DNA from: an uncultured delta proteobacterium
GTDB taxonomy: Bacteria > Myxococcota_A > Polyangia > Polyangiales > Polyangiaceae
DNA length: 64,000 nt
Reading direction: 5' to 3'
Assembly (NCBI GenBank): GCA_963782055.1
Contig: CAWAIF010000003.1
Coordinates: 4,384,001-4,448,000, forward strand
In this document: positions 25,731-63,062 of the stretch, piece after piece
How positions within the stretch are numbered: the stretch's first letter is position 1
How the letters are laid out: every line of letters begins with the position of its first letter
Notes under the pieces: model-generated
What the model was told of the DNA's origin: nothing
Database searches by the model: none
Seen by the model: the letters and a program-made list of their open reading frames with translations, nothing else
Made by a program: the position numbers and the translations under genes

Positions 25731-27452
25731 GTGTCGTCCCTCGCCGCGCCGTACGCGCCTCGGCAGCCCACCGAGACGCCGCTCTACCGCCTCGTCCGCG
25801 CCGGCCTGCAGACCTTCCTCCGCTGGGCGCGCGAGAGCTACAGCAAGCCCGTCCCCCGCTACGTCCAGCAGGATCTCCGCGGCTACCTGAAGTGCGGCGT
25901 CTTTCGCCACGGCTTCCTGCGCGCGCATTGCGACGCCTGCGGCCACGATCTGCTCGTCGCGTTCTCCTGCAAGGGCCGCGGCGTCTGCCCGAGCTGCGCG
26001 GGACGCCGCATGGCGAACACCGCCGCCCACCTGGTCGACCGCGTCCTCCCGGACGTCCCCCTCCGCCAGTACGTCCTGTCCCTTCCGTACGAGCTCCGCC
26101 GCCTCGCCGCCTTCGACCCCGTGGTGCTCCGCGCGCTCGCGCGCATCTTCGCGGACGCCATCTTCGCCAGCCACCGCCGCCGCGCCCGCGCAGCGGGGTT
26201 CGATCAGGTCGCCAGCGGCGCGGTCACCTGCGTCCAGCGCTTCGGGGGGAGCCTCAACCTCAACGTCCACTTCCACACCATCGTCATGGACGGCGTCTTC
26301 CTGCGCGAGCCGGACGGCTCCCTCGGCTTCGTGCCCTTGCCGATGCCCACCCGCGCCGAGCTGCAGCAGCTCGTCACCGCCGTCAGCCGTCGCGCCATCG
26401 CGTGGCTCCGCCGCCACGGTCACCTCTCCGAGGATCCGGTGGACCTCGACGTCGAGCCGAGCGCCCTCGACGCCTGCGTGGCTCTCGCGATGCAGCGCCC
26501 GAAGGTGCTGAAGCTCGCGATCGACCCCGGCGGCGACGACGACGACGACGCAGCCGCCCCCGCCATGGCTCACCGCGCGGTGGAGGACACCGGCTTCAAC
26601 CTCCACGCCGGCGTCCGCGTCCGGGACAATCTCGCCCGCGAGCGCCTCTGCCGCTACGCCCTGCGCCCCGCGCTCGCCCTCTCGCGCCTACGCCTCCTGC
26701 GCGACGGCCGCGTCGCCTACCGCGTCAAGCAGCCGCGCGCGGGCAAGGCGAAGCACATGATCCTCACTCCGGTGGAGCTCCTCGCCCGCGTCGCCGCGCT
26801 CGTCCCGCCGCCGCGCTACCCACTTGTCCGCTACCACGGTGTCCTCGCCCCCCGATCGTCGTGGCGGAAGCTCGTGGTCCCCAGGCCGCGTGAGCCGTCC
26901 GCCCCGTCCTGCGGGCCTCCGCGTCCTTCGCGCCCCCTCGTCCCCGCGAAACCCGGGCAGCCCATCGAGAGGCGGGCGCATCGCGACACCACACATGCGG
27001 CAGAGAGGCCCGACCCCGTGCGCCGCGATCCCGCGGGGGCGGCCAGCACCACGAGCGCGCCGCCCGCGGGCCAGCTCGCCCTCCCCCTCCCGGTCCCGCC
27101 ACCCGCGCCCGAGACCGCCGCACCCGCGGCCGCCGCAGACCTCCACGTGCGCCGTCTCGCACCCAACGTCGTCGCCGTGGGCCACTGGGAGCGCCTTCGC
27201 CGCGGCCTTCTCTACGCAGCGACATCCCGCATCGACTGGCCGCGCCTGCTCCGCCGCACCTTCGAGATCGACGTGCTCCAGTGCCCGACCTGCGGGGGCC
27301 GCCTCCGTCCCCTCGCCGTCATCACCGACGACGCCGCCGTGGTCCGCATCCTCCGCGCTCTCGACCTCCCCGCCGAAGCCCCCGCACCTGCCCGCGCCCG
27401 CGATCCGACCGACCTCCTCGACCTCGCCGCAGACGACCCCCCCGCCGCCTGA
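25731..27452 (+). CDS. ISCR/IS91-family rolling-circle HUH transposase, intact (573 aa)
   Basis: Zn-binding CDAC...SCKGRGVCPSC, HUH motif NVHFH, single catalytic Tyr RYALRP, RYHGVLAP, C-terminal WPRLLRRTFEIDVLQCPTCGG. Confidence 0.9.
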   Translation: MSSLAAPYAPRQPTETPLYRLVRAGLQTFLRWARESYSKPVPRYVQQDLRGYLKCGVFRHGFLRAHCDACGHDLLVAFSCKGRGVCPSCAGRRMANTAAHLVDRVLPDVPLRQYVLSLPYELRRLAAFDPVVLRALARIFADAIFASHRRRARAAGFDQVASGAVTCVQRFGGSLNLNVHFHTIVMDGVFLREPDGSLGFVPLPMPTRAELQQLVTAVSRRAIAWLRRHGHLSEDPVDLDVEPSALDACVALAMQRPKVLKLAIDPGGDDDDDAAAPAMAHRAVEDTGFNLHAGVRVRDNLARERLCRYALRPALALSRLRLLRDGRVAYRVKQPRAGKAKHMILTPVELLARVAALVPPPRYPLVRYHGVLAPRSSWRKLVVPRPREPSAPSCGPPRPSRPLVPAKPGQPIERRAHRDTTHAAERPDPVRRDPAGAASTTSAPPAGQLALPLPVPPPAPETAAPAAAADLHVRRLAPNVVAVGHWERLRRGLLYAATSRIDWPRLLRRTFEIDVLQCPTCGGRLRPLAVITDDAAVVRILRALDLPAEAPAPARARDPTDLLDLAADDPPAA

Positions 27453-27488
27453 CCACGCGGCAGCGCGCCCGTCCGACTAGCGCGTGCT

Positions 27489-27588
27489 CACCCTGGTCCG
27501 TCCTTCCAGTGACACCGGACGGCCCCACTTCGCATAAGATGGATTCCGTAAACTTTCGCGCCCGACCGCGCTAGGATTTCCTATGCGC
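27489..27588 (+). repeat. Repeat A copy R1
   Basis: Direct sequence match. Confidence 0.97.
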
Positions 27589-27901
27589 TACGTTCCGGCC
27601 AGGGCTCATCGAAGGTGAAACCCTCTAGCATGCTGAGTCGGCCAGAACGGATGAAGAGCACGAATCCGACACCGCGGACTAGGCCGCCGACCTCTGCGTA
27701 AACATCGCTGATCTGGAAGTCTCCATCTGCGAGTGGTGCGCCTGCATCCACAGCGAAGTCGCAAAAAAAGCCGACGCCAGTTCGCCTCCGCCCGACAACG
27801 CGAGCCGCATCGGCCTGTAGTCGAAGGGTAGCTAGTGTCGGATCATCGCCGGCGAGTTGCTTGTCGAGCACGGCGCGTTCCAATGTGCTTAAGTTATCCA
27901 T
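27581..27901 (-). CDS. Immunity-protein-like hypothetical; stop codon supplied by R1
   Basis: GGAGGT RBS; TGVGFFCDF...GFVLFIRSGRLSMLEGFTFDEPWP; lower GC. Confidence 0.55.
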   Translation of the reverse strand: MDNLSTLERAVLDKQLAGDDPTLATLRLQADAARVVGRRRTGVGFFCDFAVDAGAPLADGDFQISDVYAEVGGLVRGVGFVLFIRSGRLSMLEGFTFDEPWPERSA

Positions 27902-27928
27902 GTCAGGTCCGTACCTCCTAGCTAGGGA

Positions 27929-28028
27929 GCGCATAGGAAATCCTAGCGCGGTCGGGCGCGAAAGTTTACGAAATCCATCTTATGCGAAGTGGGGCCGTCC
28001 GGTGTCACTGGAAGGACGGACCAGGGTG
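27929..28028 (-). repeat. Repeat A copy R2 (inverted)
   Basis: Reverse complement of the consensus. Confidence 0.97.
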
Positions 28029-28487: not shown

Positions 28488-28588
28488 CACGTAGGTCCGG
28501 GTTTTCCAGTCGGAGCGAACGAACCTTTTCGTATGACGTGTGTTTCGTAAACTTTTCCCGCCCGATCGCGCTAGGATTTCCTATGTGC
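28488..28588 (+). repeat. Repeat A copy R3 (degenerate)
   Basis: 3' half TTTCGTAAACTTTTCCCGCCCGATCGCGCTAGGATTTCCTATGTGC well conserved; 5' half diverged (CACGTAGGTCCG..TTCCAGT). Confidence 0.8.
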
Positions 28589-28888
28589 CTCGCCTGGCGA
28601 GAACATGAAGCTCTCGTCGGCGTTCTGCATGACGTGCCCGTCGTCGGCGTCGAGCTCGCGGACCATGTCGCGACGAAGACGAGCGAGACCGCGCTGCACG
28701 TCGCTGAAGACGCACGGGAGGCCTGGTATGCTCTGGAAGAAGGGTCCGACGATGGACGGAGACCGTCGAGGGTGGTCCATGACCTACGAACGTGTCGCCT
28801 GGTGCTTTCTTCGTCGCTCGGTCAGCGCCGAGGCCATCGGCGGGAGGCTCGCTCCTTCGCCTCCCGAACCGCGACGATCCGCTCGACT

Positions 28889-28988
28889 CACCCTGGTCCG
28901 TCCTTCCAGTGACACCGGACGGCCCCACTTCGCATAAGATGGATTCCGTAAACTTTCGCGCCCGACCGCGCTAGGATTTCCTATGCGC
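28889..28988 (+). repeat. Repeat A copy R4
   Basis: Identical to R1. Confidence 0.97.
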
Positions 28989-29356
28989 CGCGAGCCGGGC
29001 GCGTTGGTGTGCGCGAGCTCGTCGACGAGGATGAGGGACGGCTTTCGTTCGAGCGCCTTGTCGAGGTCGAACTCCTCGACGGCGACGCCTCGGTGCTGCT
29101 CCTTGCGCCTCGGGAGCAGCTCGAGGCCGATGACGAGCCCCGCGGTGTCGTAGCGGCCGTGCGTCTCGACGATGCCGATGACTACGTCGCGGCCCCCGTC
29201 CTTCTCGAGGCGCGCCGCCTCGAGCATCGCGTACGTCTTGCCGACGCCGGGCGCCGCGCCGAAGAAGATGGTCAGCTTGCCGCGATGCTCGCGCTTCTCC
29301 TCCTCGGTGACCTGCCGGAGGAGCTCGTCGGGGTCGCGGCGCGCGCCGAGGGCCAT
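28989..29356 (-). pseudogene. kdpD: KdpD N-terminal fragment cut at R4
   Basis: GKLTIFFGAAPGVGKTYAML...LVDELAHTNAPGSR, then reads into the repeat. Confidence 0.92.
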
Positions 29357-29375
29357 TGACCGAAGATACCTCGGG

Positions 29376-31529
29376 TCAGACGAGATGGAGCGCGACGAGG
29401 ATGACGTCGATCAGCTTGATGCCCACGAACGGAACGACGACGCCGCCGAGGCCGTAAATCAGGAGGTTGCGGCGGAGCAGGGCCGCCGCGCCGAGCGCTC
29501 GGTACCGAACGCCCCGGAGGGCGAGCGGGATGAGAGCGATGATGACGAGGGCGTTGAAGATCACCGCGGAGAGGATCGCGCTCTTGGCGGTCTCGAGGTG
29601 CATGATGTTGAGCGCGCCGAGCGCCGGGTACGTGCCGAGGAAGACCGCCGGGATGATCGCGAAGTACTTGGCGACGTCGTTGGAGAGGCTGAAGGTCGTC
29701 AGCGCGCCCCTCGTGATGAGCAGCTGCTTGCCGATCTCGACGATCTCGATGAGCTTCGTGGGGTTCGAGTCGAGGTCGACCATGTTGCCGGCCTCCTTCG
29801 CGGCCTGCGTGCCGGAGTTCATCGCGACGGCCACGTCGGCCTGGGCGAGCGCCGGCGCGTCGTTCGTGCCGTCGCCGGTCATGGCGACGAGGCGCCCACC
29901 GGCCTGGTTCTCGCGGATGAGCTTGAGCTTGGTCTCGGGCGTGGCCTGCGCCAGGAAGTCGTCGACGCCGGCCTCGGCGGCGATCGCCGCCGCGGTCATC
30001 GGGTTGTCGCCGGTGATCATGATCGTCTTGATGCCCATGCGGCGGAGCTCGGAGAAGCGCTCCTTGATGCCACCTTTGACGATGTCCTTGAGCTCGATGA
30101 CGCCGAGCACCCTCTCGCGCTCGGCGACCACCAGCGGCGTCGCGCCGCGCTTGGCGATCGTGTCGACGGCGCGCTGCACGTCGCCCGGGAACGTGCCGCC
30201 CTTGGCGCGAACGTAGGCCTCGATCGCATCGGCGGCGCCTTTTCGGATCTCGCGATCCTTGGTGTCGACGCCGCTCATCCGGGTCTGCGCGCTGAAGGGA
30301 ACGAAGGTCGCGTCGAGGTCGGCCATCGCGCGCTCGCGCACGCCGAATTTCTCCTTCGCGAGGATGGTGATGCTCCGGCCCTCCGGGGTCTCGTCCGCGA
30401 TGGACGCGAGCTGGGCCGCCTCGGCGAGCGCCTCGGGCTTCACGCCCGGCGCGGGCACGAAGGACGACGCCTGGCGGTTGCCGAGCGTGATCGTCCCGGT
30501 CTTGTCGAGCAGGAGCACGTCGACGTCGCCCGCCGCCTCGACGGCCCGCCCCGAGGTGGCGATGACGTTGGCCTGGACCATGCGGTCCATTCCCGCGATG
30601 CCGATCGCGGAGAGCAGCGCGCCGATGGTCGTGGGGATGAGGCATACGAGCAGCGCGACGAGCGCGGTGATGCTGATCGGCTCCCCCTTTCCGGCCGCGT
30701 GCACGCTGAAGATGGAGAACGGCAGGAGCGTGACGCAGACGAAGAGGAAGATGATCGTGAGCGCGGCGAGGAGGATGTCGAGGGCGATCTCGTTGGGAGT
30801 CTTCTGGCGCTTGGCGCCCTCGACCATCGCGATCATGCGATCGAGGAAGGCCTCTCCGGGGTTGGCGCTCACGCGCACGATGATCCAGTCGGACAGGACG
30901 CGCGTCCCGCCGGTGACCGCGCTGCGATCGCCGCCGCTCTCGCGGATGACCGGCGCGCTCTCACCGGTGATCGCGCTCTCGTCGACCGAGGCGACGCCAA
31001 GGACGATCTCTCCGTCGACCGGGATGAAATCGCCGGTCTCGACGAGGACGACGTCGCCCTTGCGGAGCGCCGTCGACGCGACGCGCGTCACGGCGGCGTC
31101 GCGCTCCGGCCGCGCGAGCTGCTTGGCCTGGATGTCGCGGCGAGACTTGCGGAGCGCGTCGGCCTGCGCCTTGCCGCGCCCCTCGGCCATCGCCTCGGCG
31201 AAGTTGGCGAAGAGCACGGTGAACCAGAGCCAGGCGGAGATGGCGCCGATGAAACCGGGCGACGCCTCGCCGTGCCCCCCGAGCGCGTGGAAGAAGAGCA
31301 GCGTCGTCAGCAGGCTGCCGACCTCCACAACGAACATCACCGGGTTCTTGATCTGATGGCGCGGGTCGAGCTTCGCGAAGCTGGCGCCGATCGCGCCCTT
31401 GACGATCGCGGCCTCGAAGAGCGGGCGCGCGACGGCGCCTTTGTCGCCTTCGCCGGCGGCGCGATCGCGCGCGGGCGCCGCCGACGGCGCGCCGGGGGCG
31501 ACAGGTGCGGTGGGGTTCTCGTGTTTCAT
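29376..31529 (-). CDS. kdpB: K+-transporting P-type ATPase subunit B
   Basis: [27 protein letters not shown]. Confidence 0.96.
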
Positions 31530-32080
31530 CGGAGTGCGTCCAGAGCGAGGTTCAGTTCCAGCACGTTGACGATCCGGTCGGGGGTGAGCGGACCGCCGGG
31601 AGAGACAGTCTGTGCGTCGATGAGCGACTCGACGCGTGCGACCGGCAAGCCGCGGGCGTGGGCGACTCGCTCGGCCTGGTAGCGCGCGGCCTCGGCGCTG
31701 ATGTGGGGATCGAGGCCGCTGCCGGACGCGGCGACGAGATCGGCCGGGATGGGCTCGTCGGCGGTGGCCGCGTACGTCCCGACGAGCTTGGTCGCGCGGT
31801 CGGTGAGGTCCGAGCTCGTCGGCGACTTGTTGCTGCCGCCGGCGGCCGAGGCGTTGTAGTCGACCGCAGAGGGCCGCGGCCAGAAGTACTTCGGGCTCTC
31901 GAACTTCTGAGCGATGAGCCGGCTGCCCACGACCGCACCGTTCGGCCCGCGCAGGAGCGAGCCCTCGGCGCCGTCGTGGTCGACGACCTGGGCGAACGCG
32001 AAGACGAGCAGCACGTAGCCGACGACGCAAACGAGGATCGTGGCGAGCGCGACACGCAGACTGGCGAGGAGCGATTGCAT
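31526..32080 (-). CDS. kdpC: K+-transporting ATPase subunit C
   Basis: [29 protein letters not shown]. Confidence 0.95.
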
Positions 32081-32090
32081 GGCTTTACCC

Positions 32091-33767
32091 TCAGTGCATG
32101 AACTGGAAGTGCTCGGCGATGGGACCGAGCGCCGCCACCGGGAAGAAGGTGAGCGCTCCGACCACGACGATCGTCGCGGCGAGCATCACCCCGAAGGTGC
32201 TGTCGCGCACGCCGAGCGTCCCGCTGGACTCCGCCGTGGCCTTCTTCGACGCGAGTGACCCGGCGATCGCGAGCGGAAGGATGATGGGGATGAAGCGCGC
32301 GAGCATCATGACGACGCCGGTCGCGATGTCCCAGGGCGCCGTCCCGTCGCCGAGGCCCTCGAACCCCGAGCCGTTGTTGGCGCTCGCCGAGCTGAACTCG
32401 TAGAGCATCTCGCTGAAGCCGTGGGGGCCGGTGTTGTTCAGCGTCGTGGTCCCCCAGGACGTCACGGCGAAGATCGCCGTGCCGCCGAGGACGAGGAACG
32501 CATGAGCGAGGAGCGCGAGCGCCGCGAGCTTCACCTCCCGCGCCTCCACGCGCCGGTTCAAGTACTCCGGCGTGCGGCCCACCATCATCCCGGCGATGAA
32601 GACCGCGATGACGATGTAGAGGAACATGTTGATCATCCCGACGCCGACGCCGCCGAACGTCTCGTTGAGCCACATCCCGATCATCGGAAAGAGCCCGGTC
32701 ATCGGGTTGAGGCTGTCGTGCATCGCGCCGACCGAGCCGTTGCTCGTCGAAGTGGTCATGACCGCCCAGAGCGGCCCGGTGGCCGCGCCGAAGCGGAGCT
32801 CCTTGCCCTCGAGGTTCGGCAGATGCGTGATCGGCAGGCCCGCGAAGGCCGCCGTCGGCGCCTGCTCGAAGTGGACCGCGCCGCCGACCTTGACGAGCAG
32901 GAGCGCCATCATGACGGCGAAGACGACCGTCGCGTGACCCATGCGCGAGGTCATGCGGCCGAACATCCACACGCACGCCATCGGGATCTGGGTGATCGCG
33001 ATCAGCTCGACGGCGTTGGTCCAGAACGACGGGTTCTCGAACGGATGCGTGCTGTTCGGGCCGAAGAAGCCGCCGCCGTTGGTGCCGATCTGCTTGATGG
33101 CCACGAAGGCTGCAACCGGACCTCGGGCGATGAGCTGCTCGGCGCCTTCGAGCGTCGTCGCGTGGGCCGCGCCGTGGAAGGTCATCGGCATCCCGCCCAG
33201 GGTCAGGAGGAAGGCGACGCCGACCGCGACCGGCAAGAAGACGAGGAAGGTCGCCCGCTGGAGGTCGACGAAGAAGTTCCCGAGCTGCTTGCGCCCGGCG
33301 AGTCCGCGCGCCATCGCCGCGAGCGCGGCGACGCCGGTCGCCGCCGAGACGAACTGGAGCCACATCAGCGCGAAGAGCTGCGAGAGGTAGCTCATCTGCT
33401 GCTCGCCGGAGTAGTGCTGGAGGTTCGTGTTCGTGGTGAACGACGCCGTCGTGTTGAAGACGGTGTGGGGCTCGAGCGCCTTCATCCCGTCCGGGTTGAG
33501 CGGCAGGTGCTGCTGGAGCGCCATCACGCCGTAGCTCACGACGAACATGACGACGTTGAAGACGAGCATGTCGACCGCGTACCGCTTCCAGCCGTGCTCT
33601 TCGCGGCCGAGCTTGCCGGCGACGGCCACGAAGAGGCGGTCCAGCCGCTCGCGGCGCGGACCGGCGCTCTCGCCGGGATCCATGGCCCATTTCATGTAGC
33701 GACCGAGCGGCCACGAGAGCGCCGCGCAGCCGCCGACGATGAGAATGACGAACAGGAGCGCGCTCAT
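32091..33767 (-). CDS. kdpA: K+-transporting ATPase subunit A
   Basis: SFTTNTNLQHYSGE, KQIGTNGGG, NNGSGF. Confidence 0.96.
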   Translation of the reverse strand: MSALLFVILIVGGCAALSWPLGRYMKWAMDPGESAGPRRERLDRLFVAVAGKLGREEHGWKRYAVDMLVFNVVMFVVSYGVMALQQHLPLNPDGMKALEPHTVFNTTASFTTNTNLQHYSGEQQMSYLSQLFALMWLQFVSAATGVAALAAMARGLAGRKQLGNFFVDLQRATFLVFLPVAVGVAFLLTLGGMPMTFHGAAHATTLEGAEQLIARGPVAAFVAIKQIGTNGGGFFGPNSTHPFENPSFWTNAVELIAITQIPMACVWMFGRMTSRMGHATVVFAVMMALLLVKVGGAVHFEQAPTAAFAGLPITHLPNLEGKELRFGAATGPLWAVMTTSTSNGSVGAMHDSLNPMTGLFPMIGMWLNETFGGVGVGMINMFLYIVIAVFIAGMMVGRTPEYLNRRVEAREVKLAALALLAHAFLVLGGTAIFAVTSWGTTTLNNTGPHGFSEMLYEFSSASANNGSGFEGLGDGTAPWDIATGVVMMLARFIPIILPLAIAGSLASKKATAESSGTLGVRDSTFGVMLAATIVVVGALTFFPVAALGPIAEHFQFMH

Positions 33768-33859
33768 GGCTTTTGCTCCGTACGCGCCGTCGCGCTGGTG
33801 AGCGCGAACATCAGCGCGAAGCACGCGAGGCCGAGCAGCAGGTAGAGAAGGTTGCTCAT
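33764..33859 (-). CDS. 31-aa hydrophobic peptide between kdpF and kdpA
   Basis: MSNLLYLLLGLACFALMFALTSATARTEQKP; ATGA overlaps with both neighbours. Confidence 0.6.
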   Translation of the reverse strand: MSNLLYLLLGLACFALMFALTSATARTEQKP

Positions 33860-33948
33860 TGCATCGACTCCGGTTTCAGCATCGCGAACATCAGGTAGAC
33901 GAAGAGCGCGGCGGCGACGACGAGGCCGATCCAGTAAAGGGGTGTCAT
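33856..33948 (-). CDS. kdpF: K+-transporting ATPase subunit F
   Basis: MTPLYWIGLVVAAALFVYLMFAMLKPESMQ; YLxxAxxxPE signature; AGGAG RBS. Confidence 0.85.
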   Translation of the reverse strand: MTPLYWIGLVVAAALFVYLMFAMLKPESMQ

Positions 33949-33961
33949 GGGAGACTCCTGA

Positions 33962-35353: not shown

Positions 35354-35557
35354 GTCGATGGCGCGTGGACGTTAAGGACCGGCGAATAAAGAAACGATAA
35401 ATTCGGCGTTTCGCCGCGCGCGGTCGCTCGAGGGCAGCAAGGCATGGGCCACCTCTGCAGAGCGCGCATGTCCCCTTCGCGGGAAGCGCGCGCCCACGCG
35501 TAGCACGTGTGCGGGTGGGTCATGCGCTCACGCCATGCACCCAGCGACGGACCACGG

Positions 35558-35770
35558 TCAGTGTCGCGCCGCAGGCGCGGCTTGTGTCTCCGCTGACTCT
35601 TGAAAGAGGGGTCGAGCTCCAGCGCGCGCGCCGCGCTCCGACTGGGCCGCGATCGACGCCACGACCGCGAGCAGGGCGAGCGAGGTGACGAGCGAGCCCA
35701 CCAACCAGGCGATGGGAACGACCGAGTCCACGAGGCGCATGACTTCTGGCGGGGTTACGTCGGGCTTCAT
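35558..35770 (-). CDS. Small membrane hypothetical protein
   Basis: ATG start, one TM segment. Confidence 0.35.
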   Translation of the reverse strand: MKPDVTPPEVMRLVDSVVPIAWLVGSLVTSLALLAVVASIAAQSERGARAGARPLFQESAETQAAPAARH

Positions 35771-36028
35771 GATGCGATCACGTTAGGAACCGCGCGCCAA
35801 AGAAACGGTAAATTCGGTTCGGACTCCTCCGTTTGAGCGCGATGGCTCGCGCCCGCCGGCGGCAGCGGCGCGAGCCGGCAACAGAGAGACTACTCTCGCC
35901 GGCGTCCGGTGACTCCGGTTGGCGTTGCGCACCGGCGGGGAGGACGAGGCTGGCTCGGCGAGCGAAGGAAGCGCCAGGTCCGGCCATTTAGTGAGCCTTT
36001 AGCGGTGGCTGGTCATACTGCCTGCGTC

Positions 36029-36268: not shown

Positions 36269-36306
36269 TCGGACGCCCCCGGGCGTACTGGCGTACCATC
36301 GGTGCG

Positions 36307-53618: not shown

Positions 53619-53718
53619 CACCCTGGTCCGTCCTTCCAGTGACACCGGACGGCCCCACTTCGCATAAGATGGATTCCGTAAACTTTCGCGCCCGACCGCG
53701 CTAGGATTTCCTATGCGC
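53619..53718 (+). repeat. Repeat A copy R11
   Basis: Identical to R1. Confidence 0.97.
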
Positions 53719-55681: not shown

Positions 55682-55781
55682 CACCCTGGTCCGTCCTTCC
55701 AGTGACACCGGACGGCCCCACTTCGCATAAGATGGATTTCGTAAACTTTCGCGCCCGACCGCGCTAGCATTTCTTATGCGC
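55682..55781 (+). repeat. Repeat A copy R12
   Basis: Same variant as R10 (TAGCATTTCTTATG). Confidence 0.97.
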
Positions 55782-56026: not shown

Positions 56027-56536
56027 ATGACGGTGTTGGGTCCTGATAGCTTTTGGACCACCGCGTCGATGGTCGCGAGGCGACCTGCATGGGTCCCGGT
56101 GCAAGCCGCCTATGAGCTGAAGCGCCCAGTGCTCGTGCTGGGAAGGCAGTGGACGCTTTGTTGCAAGCTGCACCTAATACCGGTCCTTCGCCGGCGCCGG
56201 CCTTTGGGCAGTGTGGCTATTCGTGCTAGTGTCACAATGTGGCCGCCACGATACGCAGCCAAGTACCGAGAACGGCTGAAGCAAGCTGGTTGGTACAAGG
56301 TGGTGGCCGCGGAACTGCGAGTGCTTGGGTACCACGGCACGTGGTGCGATTGGGAGAACGGGAAGATGGCTGATTTCTGGAAGGATATTGCCTCGGCTGA
56401 CGACGTTGGCCGCGAACTCGCACAACTGGAGCAGTTCGATCCCGCCACTCCGGAGCCGGCGGACGAGCGAAGCCGGTTGCCCAACCGCCGAACGTCCCGC
56501 GCACGGCCGGGCCACCCTGGTCCGTCCTTCCAGTGA
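56027..56536 (+). CDS. Hypothetical protein, stop inside R13
   Basis: Lower GC; ATGA overlap with ORF 55776-56030. Confidence 0.45.
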   Translation: MTVLGPDSFWTTASMVARRPAWVPVQAAYELKRPVLVLGRQWTLCCKLHLIPVLRRRRPLGSVAIRASVTMWPPRYAAKYRERLKQAGWYKVVAAELRVLGYHGTWCDWENGKMADFWKDIASADDVGRELAQLEQFDPATPEPADERSRLPNRRTSRARPGHPGPSFQ

Positions 56537-56612
56537 CACCGGACGGCCCCACTTCGCATAAGAGGGATTTCGTAAACTTTCGCGCCCGACCGCGCTAGGA
56601 TTTCATATGCGC
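56513..56612 (+). repeat. Repeat A copy R13
   Basis: Variant AGAGGG / TTTCATATG. Confidence 0.97.
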
Positions 56613-57376: not shown

Positions 57377-57426
57377 CACCCTGGTCCGTCCTTCCAGTGA
57401 CACCGGACGGCCCCACTTCGCATAAG
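57377..57426 (+). repeat. Repeat A copy R14, left half
   Basis: Positions 1-50 of the consensus, ends ...CGCATAAG. Confidence 0.95.
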
Positions 57427-57753
57427 TAAGAGTCGATTGCGTGAGCGCGCCGGGTCGCGGCGGCGGTCGCGTGGCGCGGGTGCGCGGTCGCGAAATCGAC
57501 GGTTGGACGAAGCCGGTGCGCGGCAGCGGCGAGGCGGTGGCCTCGGAGCCCTATGGGGAAGTTGGCGGCGTGTGGGTCACGTGTGCGGGTGCGCGAGGTG
57601 CGGAGCGGGCGGCGGGACGGCGCTCGACGCGGGCGTCCCGGAGCGCGCAGCGGGCAGCCGTGCGTGCTCGGAGGCCGGGTTTTCGTGGCGTGGATGGACA
57701 GGGGCCTGGGCCGCACTCGTGGAGCGAGCGCAGTGGAGCACGACGCGGGGAGA

Positions 57754-57979
57754 TCATGCGGCCCCCGGCGGGTCGCGAGCTCGGGGCTCCGGCAGCGCGG
57801 TACGCACGAGGGCAGGCGTGTGGCAAGCGGGGCAGCGGTGCAGGTCGATGCCCGCGATTCGCAGCAGCAGGTCGGCGGCGTCGACACGGCGCACCGGTCG
57901 CGCAGCGGGCGCCGCGTGCGGACCCAGTCTGCGGCGTGCGGTCTCGAGGCGCGTGGTGGCGTGGCTGGCGGAGTGCAGG
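57754..57979 (-). pseudogene. IS91 transposase C-terminal part, separated by IS66
   Basis: Own translation LHSASHATTRLE...GIDLHRCPACHT...RDPPGAA* continues ...KIRHYGLH. Confidence 0.85.
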
Positions 57980-58053
57980 GTAACCCATCGGTGATCTGAC
58001 GTACTCCCCGGCGGGACGGATCCCCGCTACGCGCATTGGCGGAGGTCAGCGCG

Positions 58054-58386
58054 ATGGGAAAGCGGGACGGTGCGCGGCAGTGGCGGCAGTGGACGGAGCA
58101 GCAGGCGCGGGCGGCCCTCGCGGAGCTCGCGGCGAGCGGTGAGAGCGCGGCGGGCTTCGCGCGGCGCAAGGGCGTGTCGTCGCAGCGGCTCGCGTACTGG
58201 AGGGGCCGCCTCGCGCGTCCGGCGAGCACGGAGTTCGTGGCCGTGGAGCTTGCGGGCGACAGCCTGGCGCGGTGGATGGAGATCGTCGTTGGGGGTGTGG
58301 TCGTTCGCGTGCGGGAGGAGCTGGACGCGGAGCGGGTGGCGCAGCTGGTGAGGGCGCTCGGGCGGCAGGTGGGCGGCGCGTGCTGA
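58054..58386 (+). CDS. tnpA: IS66 TnpA
   Basis: [14 protein letters not shown]...LAYWR, FVAVEL. Confidence 0.85.
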
Positions 58387-58754
58387 CGCTGCCGCCCGGC
58401 GTGCGCGTGTTCGTCGCGACCGAGCGCGTCGACGGGCGCAAGGGGATCGACGGGCTCTCGGTGCTCGTGCGGTCACGGTTCGCCGAGGACCCGCTCTCGG
58501 GGACGATGTTCGTCTTCTTCTCGCGTCGCGCCGACCGCGTGCGAGTCCTGTACTGGGATCGCGACGGCTACGTGCTCATCACCAAGCGGCTGGAGAAGGG
58601 AAGCTACCGGTTGCCGTGGCCCGGCGAGGGAGGGCGCGCGGTCATCGAAGCGGCGGAGCTGCTCCTGGTGCTCGAGGGGATCGAGCTTCGCGGGGCCGGC
58701 CGGCGGATGCGCTGGTCGCCCTCCCCCCGTGTGCGACCGGCGCCCACTTTGTGA
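58380..58754 (+). CDS. tnpB: IS66 TnpB accessory protein
   Basis: [23 protein letters not shown]. Confidence 0.9.
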
Positions 58755-58822
58755 GATCCATCTTCGTGGCTGCGATCGAATCGTCTTTCCATCGGGCGCG
58801 CCCTGCGGCAAAGAGGATCAGC

Positions 58823-60424
58823 GTGTCCGCGTCGAGCAACAAGCACCCGCCCATCACCAGCGCGATCGAGCCCGATCTCGGCGCGGTGAGGAAGTTCATC
58901 GCGGACATGATCGCCAGGGGCGCCGTCGCCGAGCTGATCGCTGCGGTCGTGGGGTTGCTCGTGCGCATGCGCGAGCTCAACACGGAGTTGATGCGCAGGG
59001 TCGCGAGCAAGTCGCGCAGGCGCCCGCCCAACGAGGCGATGCGGCGCCTGCAGATGGAGCTGCCGTTTCTGTGCGCGCCCGCCGCCAACGATGGCGCCAA
59101 ACCCGGCCTCCCCCGGGAGAAGAAGCCGAGGAAGCGCGGCGCCCACAAGCCCACGCCGCATGGCCGGCCCAAGCTGCCGGCGCACCTGCCGCGCGTCCCC
59201 AACGTGCTCCTGGTCCCCGCCGCCGATCGCGTGTGTCCGGACTGCGACGTCGCGCTCACGCGCGTCTGCCTCAAGACCACGGCGGAGAAGCTCGACGTCA
59301 GGCCGTCGGAGTACATCGTCGTGCAGACGCAGCTCGAGACGTGCTCCTGTCCCAAGTGTCGCCGCTACCTCGTGACCGCGCCCACCCCGGACGAGGTCGT
59401 GGATCGTGGGCTGCTCGGCGACGAGCTTCTCGTGCAGGCGCTGGTGGATCACTACCAGGACGCGGTGCCGTGGGAGCGGATGGAGCGCAACGCGCGACAA
59501 CAGGACGTGCCGCTCGCCGCCAACACGGTGGCGTCCTCCGTCGGGAAGGTGATCGACCTGTTCGACCCCGTCGTGCGCCACATCCGCGAGGCGTGCCTGT
59601 CGTCGAGCTTCACCGCGCTCGACGCGACGCGCATGCCCGTGCTCGACCCGACGCATCCGCTCGGCATCAAGAGCGGCGCGCTCTGGCTCATCGAGGGGGA
59701 TCATCGCCATGCGTGCTTCCTCTACGCGCCGAGCGGCCACGCCGAGCACCTGAAGAAGTTCTTCGAGGGCCGCACGCTCCGCAGCGTGATGTGCGATGGG
59801 TCGCCCACCAACAACTGCGTCGAGCACGCCGGCGGCCATCGTGGCGGCTGCAACGCCCATGGCCGGCGCGGCCTGGTCGAGGCGCTTCGTCGCGGCGACG
59901 CGCGCGCCGTGCCCGGGCTGGAGCTCTACGCCAAGATCTTCCACGTCGACGCCCAGTCCAGGCGCGCAGGCGAGAGCATCGACCGGCGCTTCGAGCGGCG
60001 CCTCGAGGACAGCGCGCCCATCGTGGCCGAGCTTCGCGCCTGGCTCTCCCTGCGCCTCGCCGACGTCGAGCCCAGGAGCGTGCTCGGCCAGGCGCTCCGC
60101 TACCTCGATCGCCAGTGGTCGCGCCTCACGGCCTTCCTTCGCGATCCGCGCATGGAGCTCACCAACAACGAGGTCGAGGCCGGACTTCGGACCTGGGTCC
60201 TCGATCGCAAGACGTGGCTCTTCGTCGGCCACGAGCAGAGCGCACGCCGCGCCGCCGACGCCCTCACCCTCCTCACCACGTGCAAGAAGATGGCGATCGA
60301 CCCGCGCGCCTACTTGCGCGACACCCTCGCGAGGATCCTCGCTGGTGAGAAGAGCCTGGCGGCGCTGCTGCCGGAGACCTACGCGGCCTCGCGCGCCGAG
60401 CGGGCGCCACCCCGCGCCGCGTAG
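58823..60424 (+). CDS. tnpC: IS66 TnpC DDE transposase
   Basis: GRPKLPAHLPR, CPDC, DAT, CNAHGRR, NNEVE, DPRAYLRD. Confidence 0.9.
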   Translation: MSASSNKHPPITSAIEPDLGAVRKFIADMIARGAVAELIAAVVGLLVRMRELNTELMRRVASKSRRRPPNEAMRRLQMELPFLCAPAANDGAKPGLPREKKPRKRGAHKPTPHGRPKLPAHLPRVPNVLLVPAADRVCPDCDVALTRVCLKTTAEKLDVRPSEYIVVQTQLETCSCPKCRRYLVTAPTPDEVVDRGLLGDELLVQALVDHYQDAVPWERMERNARQQDVPLAANTVASSVGKVIDLFDPVVRHIREACLSSSFTALDATRMPVLDPTHPLGIKSGALWLIEGDHRHACFLYAPSGHAEHLKKFFEGRTLRSVMCDGSPTNNCVEHAGGHRGGCNAHGRRGLVEALRRGDARAVPGLELYAKIFHVDAQSRRAGESIDRRFERRLEDSAPIVAELRAWLSLRLADVEPRSVLGQALRYLDRQWSRLTAFLRDPRMELTNNEVEAGLRTWVLDRKTWLFVGHEQSARRAADALTLLTTCKKMAIDPRAYLRDTLARILAGEKSLAALLPETYAASRAERAPPRAA

Positions 60425-60486
60425 CCCTCACGGACATGCGCTCCGGGGGGCTGACGCGCCGCCGGGGCCGTGCTTTCGTGCACGTC

Positions 60487-60945
60487 ATGTTGCCGCTCGA
60501 AGGCTCGTTGCTGGAGAAGTTGCGCAAGATCGAGGCGCTCCACGCGGGCACGCGCGTGGATGGCGAGCGCGAGGCCGCGCGGCGCGCCGCCGAGCGCATT
60601 CGTGCCCGGCTCGCCGAGCTTCGCGGCCGCGAGCAGGACACCCTGCTCCACTACACCCTGCCCGATCCCTGGACACGCAGGCTCTTCGTCGCGCTGTGTC
60701 GCCGCTACGGTCTCGTCCCCTTTCGCGAGAGCGGCCGCCGGTACACCACCGTCCAGGTGCGCGCACCCAAGGCCTTCCACGACCACACGCTCTGGCCGCA
60801 GTTCCTCGCGCTCTCCGAGGAGCTCAACGCGCACCTCGACGAGCTCACCACCCGCGTCATCCGCGAGGCGATCAACGACGACGTGAGCGACCCGCAAGAC
60901 GGCGCTCCGCCCAAGGCGCTGCCCGAGCCGACTCGCGGCGCCTGA
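60487..60945 (+). CDS. Hypothetical passenger protein inside IS66
   Basis: LEKLRKIEALHAG..GEREAA; lies between tnpC and the right IR. Confidence 0.65.
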   Translation: MLPLEGSLLEKLRKIEALHAGTRVDGEREAARRAAERIRARLAELRGREQDTLLHYTLPDPWTRRLFVALCRRYGLVPFRESGRRYTTVQVRAPKAFHDHTLWPQFLALSEELNAHLDELTTRVIREAINDDVSDPQDGAPPKALPEPTRGA

Positions 60946-61036
60946 CGCCGTCATGGCTCCAGCCGACGGCGGGCGGACAGCACGCGCCAGTCGCCGGATC
61001 AACAGGCCCCGTGGACGTCGATCACCGATGGGTTAC

Positions 61037-61979
61037 GGTGCAGGCCGTAGTGGCGGATCTTGACGAAGCCGCGCGGCAGCACGTGCTGGACGAAGCGCGC
61101 GAGCAGCTCCTCGGCCGGGACGGTGACCGACTTGCCGTCTCTGGTGCGGAAGGTGACGCCGCGCTCGCCCATCGAGACGAAGCGGTGGTTGGAGATGCCG
61201 ACGCGGTGAGTGTAGCGACCGAGGTAGCGGATGACCTGAGCGGGGCCGCCGAAGGGTCGCTTGGCGTAGACGACCCAGGCCTTGCGTCGGAGCGCCAGCA
61301 GGTCGACGCCGCCCAGGTCGACGAGGCCGCGCGCGTGGGCGCGCTCGAGAGCGGCGAGCATCTTGCCGCGAAAGAGCGCGCCCATCACGCGCACGGGGAA
61401 GAGGAAGCGACGGCGCGCGCGCACCCAGCGCGCGGCGTGGCCGGTGAGTCCGCCGCCGGTGACGATGGCGTGCACGTGGGGGTGGAAGAGCAGCGCGCGC
61501 GTCCAGGTGTGCAGGACCATCGTGACGCCGAGCTCGGCGCCGAGCCACTTCGGATCCCGCGCGAGGGTGGCCAGCGTGTCGGCCGCGCTCGCGAAGAGCA
61601 TGTCGAAGACCCGCGCGCGCGAGCGCCGCGCGACGGCGCGCAGCTCGGCGGGGAGCGTGAAGACGACGTGGAAGTAGTGCACGGGCAGAATGCGCTCGAG
61701 CCGCGTGGCGACCCACCGCGCCTGCGCGAGCGACTGGCACTTGGGACAGTGCCGGTTGCGGCACGAGTTGTACGACGGTCGCTCGAGCCCGCACGCGGTG
61801 CACACGTCCAGATGTCCGCCCAGCGCGGCGGTCCGGCATCGCTCGATCGCCCGCAGCGCCGACCGCTCCTCGGGACGCAGCACGCGGCCGCCGGCGAAGG
61901 CCTCGCCGTGGGCGCGCACCACGTCCGCGAGCTCGATGGGCGCCGCGCGCGTGCGCGCGGGCGCACACGACGGGTGCAT
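61037..61979 (-). pseudogene. IS91-family transposase, N-terminal part (IS66-interrupted)
   Basis: SCRNRHCPKC, HPHVH, YLGRY (Y2), KIRHYG. Confidence 0.92.
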
Positions 61980-61985
61980 CGGGGC

Positions 61986-62831
61986 TCAGGGCAGCGCGTC
62001 GAGGGGGCTCTGAATCGACTGCACGCGGGCGGTGCTCACGTGCAGGTAGGCCATCGTGCTCCTGAGCGACGCGTGCCCGAGCAAGACCTGCAACGTGCGA
62101 AGGTCGGTCCCTGCGTCGAGCAGGTGCGTGGCGAAGCTGTGGCGCAGCGTGTGCGGCGACACGCGCCGGGTGATGCCCGCGCGCCGCGCCGCCTTGAGGA
62201 TCGCCCGGTGGACGGCCGCGCGCGTGAGGAGCGTCCCGGGCACGCGCCCCGGAAACAGTTGCGGTCCTGCGGGTCGTGACGCCTTCCAGTACGCGCGCAG
62301 CGTCGCCAGCAGCCTCGCGCTGAGCATCACGTAGCGCTCACGCCCGCGCTTGGTGTGCCGCACGTGCAGGAGCATCCGCTTCGGATCGATGTCGTCCACC
62401 CGGAGCTTGCACACCTCGCTCACGCGCAGCCCCGCCCCGTAGGCGAGCATCACCAGGGCCCGGTGCTTGTGGCTCGTGAGCGACGCGAGCAGCCGCGCCA
62501 CCTCCGCGCTCGTCAGCACCACCGGCACGTGCATCGGCACCCGCATGCGCGCCATCCCCAGCGTCGCCTCCGGCCGCTCCAGCGTCACCTCGTAGAGAAA
62601 CCTCAGCGCGGCCGCGTGCACGTTGACCGTCAGCGCCGCCAGCCTGCGCTCCGCCACCAGGTGCAAAAGGAACGTCCGGATCTCCGCCGCCCCCAGCGCG
62701 CACGGCGACCGCCCGTGGTACTGCGCGAACCGCCGCACGCACCCCACGTACGTGGCGATCGTGTTGGCGCTCATCCCTCGCAGCGCGAGGTCCTCGCTCA
62801 TCGTGTCCCGCAGTCTTCGCTTCGCACCCAT
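61986..62831 (-). CDS. Tyrosine recombinase/integrase
   Basis: GLRVSE, HTLRHSFATH, LLGH, TMAY. Confidence 0.93.
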   Translation of the reverse strand: MGAKRRLRDTMSEDLALRGMSANTIATYVGCVRRFAQYHGRSPCALGAAEIRTFLLHLVAERRLAALTVNVHAAALRFLYEVTLERPEATLGMARMRVPMHVPVVLTSAEVARLLASLTSHKHRALVMLAYGAGLRVSEVCKLRVDDIDPKRMLLHVRHTKRGRERYVMLSARLLATLRAYWKASRPAGPQLFPGRVPGTLLTRAAVHRAILKAARRAGITRRVSPHTLRHSFATHLLDAGTDLRTLQVLLGHASLRSTMAYLHVSTARVQSIQSPLDALP

Positions 62832-63009
62832 CGCGGCCTCCTTCGGCTCCGCGCGCGCCCACGAGCGGGCGGCGCGCGCCGCAGGATCGCCCGCATCACG
62901 GCACGCGAGGGCTACGAGGCGGGCTCGTCAGCGCGCACACGGCTCGCGGGGCTCCCGGGTCGCGAGCGAGCTTGATGCGGAGCCACGCTGCCGCGCAGCG
63001 GCTTCGTCC

Positions 63010-63062
63010 AAGATGGGTTTCGTAAACTTTCGCGCCCGACCGCGCTAGGATTTCCTATGCGC
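63010..63062 (+). repeat. Repeat A copy R14, right half
   Basis: AAGATGGGTTTCGTAAAC...TTTCCTATGCGC. Confidence 0.95.

What the first reader, a model, noticed from the sequence alone, without database searches (positions are those of the whole stretch)
25731..63062. ISCR-type HUH transposase followed by a 14-repeat array of captured DNA: candidate new gene-capture system
Seen: an intact single-Tyr ISCR-like transposase is followed 36 bp later by 14 copies of a sharply bounded 100-bp repeat (starts 27489, 27929 inverted, 28488 degenerate, 28889, 36749, 42789, 43155, 47864, 49280, 49380, 53619, 55682, 56513, 57377 split). Thirteen of the 14 are co-oriented with the gene. Intervening segments are unrelated and measure 340, 459, 300, 7760, 5940, 266, 4609, 1316, 0, 4139, 1963, 731 and 764 bp. 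Established: IS91/ISCR enzymes mobilise adjacent DNA by rolling-circle read-through. Inference: this is an integron/CRISPR-like storage array built by an HUH enzyme rather than IntI or Cas1, holding kb-scale, gene-boundary-blind 'spacers'. I know of no described system with this architecture.
Basis: partly seen in the sequence, partly recalled or inferred. Interest (0 to 1): 0.95.

Follow-up and report, generated by a model that had tools for sequence, protein, structure and literature searches.

The report
ISCR transposon with arrayed end-modules
An intact rolling-circle (ISCR-type) jumping gene is followed by many solo copies of its own 100-base tail that separate unrelated, often truncated pieces of DNA; this extends a known gene-capturing element rather than being a new kind of system.

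Summary
A 573-aa HUH transposase gene (25731-27452) is followed 36 bp later by a sharply bounded 100-bp repeat that recurs at the stated coordinates, 13 of 14 copies co-oriented.

The repeat is not a new kind of array repeat. It is the terminal module of the ISCR-like element itself. Its 3' end carries the motif that ends ISCR1 and ISCR2 (…TTCCTAT.C), and the protein has the ISCR single-Tyr motif LERLCRY.

Genome-wide, all 19 full-length copies lie in three arrays, each beginning about 40 bp downstream of a copy of this gene. Copies decay with distance from the gene. Six of 9 testable homologous loci in other genomes have their own tail repeated downstream.

Cargo is strain-specific DNA cut without regard to gene boundaries. 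One 4-kb segment occurs as three overlapping excerpts with independent boundaries.

The split copy holds a second IS91-family element (integrase plus two-Tyr transposase) that lands at the unit's centre.

Best reading: serial HUH rolling-circle events anchored on miniature ter-ori modules. This extends known IS801 miniature fragments and ISCR oriIS 'sandwiches'. An adaptive integron/CRISPR-like store is not supported. The scan has noted similar orphan-end arrays on other genomes.

The parts
25624..27588 (+). ISCR-like element ('ISY'): left boundary, transposase gene, 36-bp linker and its own 100-bp terminal module
   Evidence: 1969 bp are shared at 97.6% with the copy at C3 5.265-5.267 Mb. The upstream flanks are unrelated.
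25731..27452 (+). 573-aa HUH transposase with ISCR-type single Tyr
   Evidence: Pfam Y2_Tnp and Zn_Tnp_IS91. 39-41% identical to ISCR1 and ISCR2 over residues 8-416. HFH at H180/H182, LERLCRY with Y309, and a C-terminal CxxCGG ribbon.
27489..27588 (+). Unit R1: the element's own terminal module. The 5' half carries a short palindrome at the sharp left edge (ter-like). The 3' half ends in the ISCR-type oriIS motif …GGATTTCCTATGCGC.
27589..27928 (-). Spacer 1: 100% copy of a small gene that on contig C2 lies just downstream of an Rhs/YD-repeat ORF (putative orphan immunity gene)
27929..28028 (-). Unit R2, the only inverted copy (99%)
28488..28587 (+). Unit R3, a diverged full-length copy
28588..28888. 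Spacer 3: 98% copy of C3 6832600-6832888. On the right the homology ends 1 bp before the next unit. On the left, by reading the flanks, it runs to the preceding unit; the blastn match itself starts 7 bp in.
28889..28988 (+). Unit R4 (the reference copy). It cuts kdpD after 101 of 210 profile positions.
28989..36748 (-). Spacer 4: second, diverged kdp locus (kdpD' fragment, kdpB, kdpA, porin; no kdpC), 81-83% identical to the native operon and to congeners
36749..36848 (+). Unit R5
41454..42788 (-). IS4/IS5-type IS copy truncated at the edge of unit R6. It lacks the last ~329 bp, which are not on the other side of R6.
42789..42888 (+). Unit R6
43155..43254 (+). Unit R7
47864..47963 (+). Unit R8
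49280..49479 (+). Units R9 and R10 in direct tandem with no spacer (an 'empty' unit)
49480..49819 (-). 5' fragment of a gene that is intact at C3 6961338-6962192, cut at the edge of R10
53619..53718 (+). Unit R11
55682..55781 (+). Unit R12
56513..56612 (+). Unit R13
57377..57426 (+). Left half (positions 1-50) of split unit R14
57427..63009 (-). Element X: IS91-family IS carrying a tyrosine recombinase (61986-62831) and a two-Tyr Y2 transposase (60999-61979), inserted at the centre of R14. It is itself broken by a ~3.06-kb IS66-family insertion (about 57980-61037).
63010..63062 (+). Right half (positions 48-100) of split unit R14

Best explanation
This is an ISCR-family (IS91-related, single-Tyr HUH) rolling-circle element. 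Its last 100 bp form a self-contained miniature module. The left edge is sharp and terminator-like (…GC|CACCC plus a short palindrome), and the right end is the ISCR-type origin end (…TTTCCTATGCGC|Y).

The transposase nicks at the origin end. Most rounds stop 100 nt later at the internal terminator and release miniature modules. Rounds that miss a terminator carry along neighbouring DNA of arbitrary length. Products are re-inserted next to short cleavage-like motifs, preferentially beside an existing origin end near the gene. Co-oriented modules separated by unrelated excerpts of DNA therefore pile up downstream of the gene, and older units decay distally.

Shown here: the identity of enzyme and ends, the gene-array linkage here and in other genomes, non-contiguous junctions with a flank consensus, overlapping excerpts, and the decay gradient.

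Inferred: the nick positions, the direction of transfer, which neighbouring repeat a piece of cargo travels with, re-insertion at existing origin ends, and growth at the head of the array. I give about 0.35 to that specific sub-model.
For: - Enzyme: Pfam Y2_Tnp and Zn_Tnp_IS91. 39-41% identity to ISCR1 and ISCR2 transposases. HFH motif, LERLCRY and the C-terminal zinc ribbon are shared with both.
- Ends: ISCR1 ends …GGTTTATACTTCCTATACC 232 bp after its stop and ISCR2 ends …GCGTTTATTCTTCCTATAC. The window unit ends …GGATTTCCTATGCGC, and units of homologues end …GAACTTCCTAGCC, …GAATTTCCTATCC and …GAACTACCTATTCC. A GT(A/G)AACT block is invariant in 7 of 7 aligned units, including an acidobacterial one.
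- Distribution: 19 of 19 full-length copies in the genome lie in 3 arrays, each starting 39-42 bp after a copy of the gene. Co-orientation is 13 of 14, 17 of 17 and 5 of 5.
- Other genomes: 5 of 8 homologous loci with at least 2.8 kb of downstream DNA repeat their own tail in direct orientation, plus congener G006 with 4 copies in 6.5 kb. G043 has 9 listed copies over 31 kb, 8 of them co-oriented.
- The unit's left edge falls at the same place in relatives: GCGTGCT|CACCC, AACGTGCT|CAAAT, AACGTGTT|CAAAT, GACGTGGT|CAAAT.
- Flanks: [G/C][C/T]| lies before position 1 in 29 of 29 copies, and a pyrimidine follows position 100 in 19 of 19 full copies. There is no target duplication. The three full-length elements are followed by TACG, TACG and TCCG.
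- This matches the IS91 rule that the terminator tetranucleotide resembles the target tetranucleotide beside oriIS (PMC13181058, passages read).
- Two independent truncated copies both start at CGAC, position 75. This resembles the IS801 miniature fragments (PMC3189936).
- Junctions are not simple insertions: 3 of 3 testable ones are non-contiguous (kdpD'; a truncated IS copy; a gene fragment at 49480).
- Segment T occurs only 3 times in the genome, as overlapping excerpts with different left and right boundaries, each bounded by units.
- Decay with distance from the gene: Spearman rho -0.73 (n=26) and -0.73 (n=17).
Against: - No transposition intermediate or junction polymorphism was seen. 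The only public runs are soil-metagenome contigs that do not bridge a unit.
- The decay gradient is not monotonic. The third copy in this array is the most diverged proximal one, and the second copy is inverted.
- Source loci of the copied spacers carry no unit beside them today, which a purely replicative capture from this genome would predict.
- Spacer 1 is flanked by origin ends on both sides, which no simple one-ended scheme yields.
- Three of 9 testable homologous loci show no repeat within 5.9-10 kb.
- Predicted single-strand folding of the units is not better than shuffles (z from -1.9 to +0.7).
- The data do not say which flanking unit a cargo belongs to.
- According to PMC6218425 (2018), no ISCR element had been shown to transpose experimentally.
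Confidence: 0.62

Rival explanations
1. Passive debris. The 100-bp module is a miniature derivative that once proliferated. The arrays are a plastic island where homologous recombination, deletions and other IS activity between 100-bp repeats produced the truncated, shuffled segments. The transposase at the head is incidental to present-day structure, and there is no directed re-insertion at origin ends.
For: [quoted passage not shown] The arrays are rich in other IS: IS4/5-type, IS256-type, IS66 and X. Distal parts contain inverted and partial copies. Earlier scan notes on other genomes reached this reading.
Against: Homologous recombination cannot create new unit-to-cargo boundaries, yet segment T has three different left and three different right boundaries. 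Both flanks show a sequence consensus, 29 of 29 and 19 of 19. All 19 full copies sit in gene-headed arrays, with 9 copies 100% identical to the reference. The same architecture recurs with unrelated unit sequences in 6 of 9 testable loci.
Confidence: 0.22
2. One reading: a dedicated, selectively maintained acquisition platform analogous to integrons or CRISPR. A resident HUH enzyme stores captured DNA for the host's benefit.
For: Each array begins beside the gene, and the decay gradient is compatible with growth near the gene. The gene-linker-unit layout is conserved over about 50% protein divergence and across phyla. Some cargo is a complete accessory gene, such as the putative immunity gene in spacer 1.
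Against: There is no orientation bias among predicted cargo ORFs (11 on +, 16 on -). Many pieces are gene fragments or IS remnants. No promoter-like site was found in the units. The element itself is multi-copy and mobile, with three copies in unrelated flanks. One of the three copies is frameshifted.
Confidence: 0.1
3. Integron-like cassette recombination driven by the tyrosine recombinase of element X, with the 100-bp unit as its att site.
For: X sits at position 48-50 of the unit in 6 of 7 copies examined with both halves present. Both junctions share CTTCG…AAG.
Against: X's transposase was not found in 4 of 5 other array-bearing genomes, and the fifth has only a 41-residue fragment. Their integrase hits are generic (32-48% identity), and none lies near an array mapped. 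In G042 the units are split by IS1595- and IS5-type IS instead. Read on X's coding strand, the junctions fit the IS91 rule (CTTG…|CTTA).
Confidence: 0.03
4. Assembly artefact: the junctions are chimeric.
For: Junctions could not be verified with reads.
Against: The genome is in 3 contigs, with the window on a 7.0-Mb contig. Spacers are unique and kb-sized, and the units are only 100 bp. The same architecture is seen in independently assembled genomes.
Confidence: 0.02

Closest known systems
ISCR elements (ISCR1, ISCR2/ISVsa3; the ISCR branch of the IS91 family)
   Same: Single-Tyr HUH transposase with the LERLCRY motif and a C-terminal zinc ribbon. oriIS with …TTCCTAT.C lies 100-230 bp downstream of the gene. 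Variable DNA lies on the oriIS side. No inverted repeats and no target duplication (PMC6218425).
   Different: Only 36-39% protein identity, with a ~80-residue Pro/Ala-rich insert. The tail is a discrete 100-bp module with a sharp, conserved left edge, and it occurs as 14-26 co-oriented hits per long array (A1 26, A2 17, A3 5) in chromosomes of soil-type bacteria. The ISCR2 tail averages 1.4 places per plasmid (4042 places in 2917 records).
IS801 miniature right-end fragments and one-ended transposition (Bardaji et al. 2011, PMC3189936)
   Same: Fragments consisting only of the origin end, starting at a terminator-like tetranucleotide, are mobile in trans. The full element can also carry 290-1431 nt of adjacent DNA.
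   Different: Those fragments are 229-679 nt, were trapped singly on a plasmid, and are not arranged in arrays. Here one 100-bp form dominates and is arrayed beside the gene.
ISCR28 'sandwich' of two sequential oriIS capturing the gene between them (Yuan et al. 2024). I saw this only as described in PMC12772301; the paper itself is not in the library.
   Same: DNA bounded by two co-oriented oriIS ends is treated as one capture unit.
   Different: That is a single unit with a remnant gene copy on a resistance plasmid. Here there are many units bounded by 100-bp modules, with a decay gradient.
Integrons
   Same: An enzyme gene at one end, followed by a co-oriented array of repeats separating cargo.
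   Different: The enzyme is HUH, not IntI. There are no attC-type sites, no common promoter logic, and cargo is kb-scale and not gene-sized. See the membership test.
Helitrons (eukaryotic rolling-circle transposons)
   Same: HUH-based capture of host gene fragments by terminator read-through (PMC4778049, abstract seen in a search listing).
   Different: Helitrons are eukaryotic and use a Rep-helicase fusion protein. The relation is analogy only.

Membership tests
IS91/ISCR family | HUH nuclease motif in a Y2_Tnp-type transposase with an N-terminal zinc-binding domain | tested here: met
   Pfam PF04986 (98.7 bits) and PF14319 (60.3 bits). HFH at H180/H182 is invariant in the alignment.
ISCR subgroup | Single catalytic Tyr (…LERLCRY…) instead of the IS91-type Y-x-x-x-Y | tested here: met
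   The window protein has LERLCRYALRP; ISCR1 and ISCR2 have LERLCRYISRP. X's enzyme has RYLGRYTHR, with two Tyr.
ISCR subgroup | oriIS end with a conserved terminal motif downstream of the gene | tested here: met
   The unit ends …GGATTTCCTATGCGC, 136 bp after the stop. ISCR1 ends …ACTTCCTATACC and ISCR2 ends …TCTTCCTATAC. The motif is conserved in homologues' units.
IS91/ISCR family | No terminal inverted repeats and no target-site duplication; short target motif beside oriIS | tested here: met
   Flanks of 19 full copies show no duplication and have Y after position 100. The three full-length elements are followed by TACG, TACG and TCCG.
IS91/ISCR family | Defined terIS at the gene-proximal (left) end | tested here: inconclusive
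   The left boundary maps to about 25624 by comparison of copies. No recognisable ter motif was found there. A ter-like edge lies instead between the gene and oriIS.
IS91/ISCR family | Rolling-circle transposition through single-stranded circles | not testable with these tools
   The public runs hold only short metagenome contigs.
Integron | IntI-type tyrosine recombinase with adjacent attI, and attC sites bounding gene-sized cassettes | tested here: not met
   The gene at the head is an HUH transposase. The only tyrosine recombinase lies inside IS element X. Spacers range from 0 to 7760 bp and cut genes.
CRISPR | Short repeats (about 25-40 bp), short spacers and cas genes | tested here: not met
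   Repeats are 100 bp and spacers reach 7.8 kb. No Cas family appears among the 37 ORFs scanned against Pfam.
MITE (miniature derivative of an IS) | Short non-coding element made of the ends of a parental IS, mobilised in trans, dispersed in the genome | tested here: inconclusive
   The unit is short and derived from the parental tail. It lacks inverted repeats and target duplication, and it is arrayed, not dispersed: 19 of 19 full copies lie in arrays.

The most novel reading that the evidence does not exclude
ISCR-type enzymes with an internal terminator form a widespread HUH-based acquisition platform. A resident transposase sheds 100-nt ter-ori minicircles and stitches kb-scale excerpts of DNA into an array that grows beside the gene. 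This would be a third array-building mechanism beside integrons and CRISPR. It would also explain why ISCR-linked variable DNA always lies on the oriIS side.
Probability: 0.2. Interest if true: 0.85.

Novelty: new variant of a known kind. Interest (0 to 1): 0.58.

Why it matters
ISCR elements are held responsible for moving many resistance genes. Yet, as of the 2018 paper I read (PMC6218425), none had been shown to transpose. Why their variable DNA lies on the origin side also fits the simple read-through model poorly; that second point is from my own knowledge.

This genome offers a young, apparently active natural system:
- two intact transposase copies and a third, frameshifted one;
- nine units 100% identical to the reference;
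- three arrays;
- overlapping excerpts of one source DNA.

It lies in a non-pathogenic, soil-type bacterium, and parallel arrays occur in other phyla. That gives defined substrates (a 100-bp module with two candidate nick sites) and clear predictions for biochemical and strain-comparison tests of how ISCR-type capture works.

Tried and rejected
- Public reads: 4 soil-metagenome runs were laid. X1 holds fragments of at most 834 bp with 0-2 differences, and none bridges a unit. This says nothing about junctions, circles or absence.
- Single-strand folding of six sequences, five units and the reverse strand of one (one search exceeded the size limit and was re-sent shorter): z from -1.9 to +0.7, not significant. 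I therefore do not rest anything on hairpins beyond noting short local palindromes.
- Outward promoter idea, by analogy with the ISCR1 POUT promoters of PMC6218425: the σ70-type scan of 27400-29100 found 0 sites. This is a simple consensus scan and may not suit this organism.
- Replication-direction bias as the cause of co-orientation: cumulative GC skew has its minimum at 1.5 Mb and its maximum at 3.5 Mb. That puts arrays A1 (+) and A2 (-) in one replichore with opposite orientations, so I rejected this idea. The skew profile is asymmetric, so the rejection is weak.
- My first idea, that the unit is the joined ends of element X (a MITE of X): rejected. The origin motif and the spacing match the 573-aa gene, and other genomes have arrays without X.
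- Synteny rival: the spacers are not neighbours in six congeners.
- Unit phase (cargo plus next unit, or unit plus next cargo): the T family did not resolve it.
- tRNA landmark: none in the window.
- Earlier-findings look-up by place: nothing recorded for this genome.
- Literature: seven searches, judged from listings and abstracts, turned up no paper describing long gene-headed arrays of miniature oriIS modules. Subscription papers, including Yuan 2024 and the Toleman 2006 review, were not read.

Full report
**Observation**

The ORF at 25731-27452 (+) is intact at 573 aa. It matches Pfam Y2_Tnp (E 5.4e-28) and Zn_Tnp_IS91 (E 1.8e-16).

Thirty-six bp after its stop codon starts a 100-bp sequence.
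- eleven full + copies at 95-100% identity;
- one inverted copy (27929-28028, 99%);
- one diverged copy (about 28488-28587);
- one split copy (57377-57426 and 63010-63062).

The spacer lengths are as stated. Thirteen of 14 co-oriented gives p = 0.002.

**What the enzyme is**

tblastn against plasmids gave ISCR2 (ISVsa3) and ISCR1 transposases at 39-41% identity over residues 8-416. I aligned the protein with ISCR1, ISCR2 and two homologues from other phyla. It shares three features with them:
- the HUH motif (HFH, H180/H182);
- the single-Tyr motif LERLCRY (Y309), identical to ISCR1 and ISCR2;
- their C-terminal CxxCGG ribbon.

Its extra length is a Pro/Ala-rich insert. 'Single-Tyr ISCR-like' is therefore correct.

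**What the repeat is**

Homologous loci from other genomes (43 loci) have different repeat sequences, but their 3' ends are alike: …GAACTTCCTAGCC, …GAATTTCCTATCC, …GAACTACCTATTCC. The window unit ends …GGATTTCCTATGCGC.

I read the DNA downstream of annotated ISCR1 and ISCR2 genes. ISCR1 ends …GGTTTATACTTCCTATACC exactly 232 bp after its stop, the length given for its oriIS region in PMC6218425. ISCR2 ends …GCGTTTATTCTTCCTATAC.

An alignment of seven units from six genomes, including an acidobacterium, keeps three blocks: a 5' block (TCA…GTCC…TTCCAG), an invariant GT(A/G)AACT, and the 3' ATTTCCTAT block.

So the first 'repeat' is the transposon's own origin-bearing tail, and the other copies are solo tails. 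Comparison of the gene copies in this genome puts the whole element at about 25624-27588: 1969 bp shared at 97.6%, with unrelated upstream flanks.

**Distribution in the genome**

blastn-short finds 62 hits. All 19 full-length copies at 95% or better lie in three arrays:

| Array | Position on C3 | Strand | Distance from gene copy to first unit | Co-oriented hits |
|---|---|---|---|---|
| A1 (this window and beyond) | 4.411-4.487 Mb | + | 39 bp | 13 of 14 in the window; 21 of 26 over the whole array |
| A2 | 5.177-5.265 Mb | - | 40 bp | 17 of 17 |
| A3 | 2.725-2.741 Mb | - | 42 bp (gene copy frameshifted) | 5 of 5 |

Outside the arrays there are only halves and partial copies. The unit is essentially private to this genome: 5 of 40 relatives gave only weak partial matches.

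Intactness falls with distance from the gene. Spearman rho is -0.73 (n=26) for A1 and -0.73 (n=17) for A2. With split halves merged the values are -0.69 and -0.92. Three caveats apply:
- the measure mixes truncation and divergence;
- the hits are not independent;
- the trend is not monotonic, because the third copy in A1 is strongly diverged and the second is inverted.

**Other genomes**

Eighteen loci hold the 3' end of a homologous gene.
- Eight have at least 2.8 kb of downstream DNA. Five of these repeat their own post-stop tail downstream in direct orientation (L001, L004, L007, L013, L016). Three do not within 5.9-10 kb (L002, L005, L021).
- None of the 10 loci with less than 1.8 kb downstream does.

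Congener G006 adds a sixth positive of nine, with four copies in 6.5 kb.

Whole-genome searches gave:
- G043: 9 listed copies over 31 kb downstream of the gene, 8 co-oriented and decaying with distance;
- the acidobacterial G041: 3 copies in series plus one distant;
- G042: 25 hits in clusters.

The left edge of the unit falls at the same place after the gene in four diverged relatives: GCGTGCT|CACCC, AACGTGCT|CAAAT, AACGTGTT|CAAAT, GACGTGGT|CAAAT. The layout gene - short linker - discrete module is therefore a conserved property of this subfamily and not an accident of one insertion.

**Junctions and cargo**

Flanks show no target duplication. They do show a consensus: [G/C][C/T] immediately before position 1 in 29 of 29 copies and halves, and a pyrimidine after position 100 in 19 of 19 full copies. 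The three full-length elements are followed by TACG, TACG and TCCG. The unit itself starts with CACC.

This fits the rule read in PMC13181058: in the IS91 family the tetranucleotide at the terminator resembles the target tetranucleotide beside oriIS. Two independent truncated copies both begin at CGAC, position 75. This resembles the IS801 right-end fragments that begin at terminator-like tetranucleotides (PMC3189936).

The units are not simple insertions. In 3 of 3 junctions where it can be tested, the flanks are not contiguous:
- kdpD is cut after 101 of 210 profile positions, and its remainder is nowhere nearby. An intact kdpD lies at 2.35 Mb.
- An IS copy lacks its last ~329 bp at unit R6, and these are not on the other side.
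- At 49480 a gene that is intact at 6.96 Mb is cut.

Three spacer segments are copies of single sites elsewhere. Spacer 1 is an exact 340-bp match bounded by the two units. Spacer 3 is 98% identical, ends 1 bp before the next unit, and by reading of the flanks reaches the preceding unit. The first 340 bp after R10 are 95% identical to a gene start at 6.96 Mb.

Spacer 1 is the small gene that on contig C2 follows an Rhs/YD-repeat ORF. By position it is a putative immunity gene; it has no family match.

The kdp segment is only 81-83% identical both to this genome's native operon and to congeners. Most of 42.9-57.4 kb has no nucleotide match in six congeners. The cargo is therefore strain-specific accessory DNA. 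Predicted cargo ORFs run 11 on + and 16 on -.

**Overlapping excerpts**

A roughly 4-kb segment, T, occurs only three times in the genome, all inside arrays.

| Copy | Left boundary | Right boundary |
|---|---|---|
| A3 | unit\|TCGAGCG… | continues for 7157 bp to the next unit |
| A2b | unit\|CAAC…, starting 23 nt earlier than A3 | …CTTCGAGC\|unit at T position 4020 |
| A2a | T is continuous with 1868 bp of other DNA on its left | …CATCGAGC\|unit at T position 3870 |

No copy contains another. All three must therefore derive from a longer source by independent events that set new unit-cargo boundaries on both sides. Homologous recombination between units cannot do this. It is what repeated nick-anchored capture or truncation would leave.

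The data do not tell whether a cargo travels with the unit before it or the unit after it.

**The split copy**

The insert at 57427-63009 is a 2518-bp element, X, here itself broken by an IS66-family insertion. X encodes, on the opposite strand, a tyrosine recombinase and a two-Tyr IS91-type transposase.

Six of 7 copies examined lie between unit positions 1-50 and 48-100. Read on X's coding strand the junctions are CTTG GACGAAG… …GACTCTTA|CTTA. That is an IS91-like terminator/target pair.

IS91-family members with an upstream integrase gene are known to me from recall only. An earlier scan note mentions the same subgroup.

X is not a conserved partner:
- its transposase was not found in 4 of 5 other array-bearing genomes;
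- integrase hits there are generic, and none lies near an array mapped;
- in G042 the units are split by IS1595- and IS5-type elements instead.

The unit's centre is therefore a landing site for several IS families.

**Comparison with what is known**

- Solo ISCR2 tails are common in plasmids: 4042 places in 2917 records, about 1.4 per record.
- IS801 right-end fragments of 229-679 nt transpose in trans, and IS801 carries 290-1431 nt of adjacent DNA (PMC3189936, abstract and passages read).
- A 'sandwich' of two sequential oriIS capturing the gene between them is attributed to Yuan et al. 2024 in PMC12772301. I did not see the original paper.

Seven literature searches, judged from listings and abstracts, showed no description of long, gene-headed arrays of a discrete 100-bp module.

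The scan's own earlier notes report co-oriented orphan ISCR-type ends in several other genomes and filed them as a known kind. I did not check those claims. They agree with my independent identification here.

**Verdict**

The finding is real, and the link to the HUH enzyme is well supported. It is best filed as a new variant of ISCR/IS91 rolling-circle capture, not a categorically new system. The integron/CRISPR analogy holds for layout only.

This case has several distinguishing features:
- the intact enzyme sits beside each array;
- the units are young and identical;
- the internal terminator-like edge is conserved;
- overlapping excerpts of one source DNA survive.

Together these make it a good natural model for testing how ISCR-type capture works.

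Noticed in passing
window 57427-63009; also at least 11 other places on C3: Element X (tyrosine recombinase plus two-Tyr IS91-type transposase, 2518 bp) is found almost only at the exact centre of the 100-bp unit. Six of 7 examined copies have both unit halves. This is a highly site-specific IS91-family element that parasitises another rolling-circle element's end.
   Followed up: partly
window 57980-61037: An IS66-family element (HTH ORF, a 602-aa DDE_Tnp_IS66 ORF and others) is inserted inside X, with about 7 bp of X repeated at both sides. This gives three levels of nesting: IS66 in X in the unit.
   Followed up: partly
window 28784-35353: The second kdp locus has kdpA, kdpB and a truncated kdpD only 20 bp after kdpB, with no kdpC. 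The native operon at C3 2.3457-2.3507 Mb has a 620-bp gap where kdpC would fit. A BBP2 porin gene lies beside kdpA, as in congeners.
   Followed up: partly
window 36851-38770 and 55400-55705; C3 5.2445-5.2536 Mb: A gene family with no Pfam match, except a weak RHS-repeat hit, recurs about every 3 kb in array A2 and twice in the window. It may be a set of Rhs-type toxin/immunity modules among the cargo.
   Followed up: no
L032 11660-12746 and L046 2767-4131 (genome G042 = G001): Units of the congener's own family are split at their centre by an IS1595-type and an IS5-type IS. The centre of these modules attracts unrelated IS families.
   Followed up: partly
window 27929-28028; G043 C10 91236-91323: In both this array and the G043 array, the second copy after the gene is the inverted one. 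This may be coincidence or a recurrent feature.
   Followed up: no
window 20000-25600: The three genes upstream of the element (DUF6629, acyltransferase-SGNH, metallophosphatase) match congeners at 70-77% but on different contigs in each. Synteny is low even outside the array.
   Followed up: no
window 47121-47645; C3 6.7753-6.7766 Mb and 2.7329-2.7344 Mb: Fragments of at least one further IS91-family element (32-39% identical protein) lie among the cargo and elsewhere in the genome.
   Followed up: no
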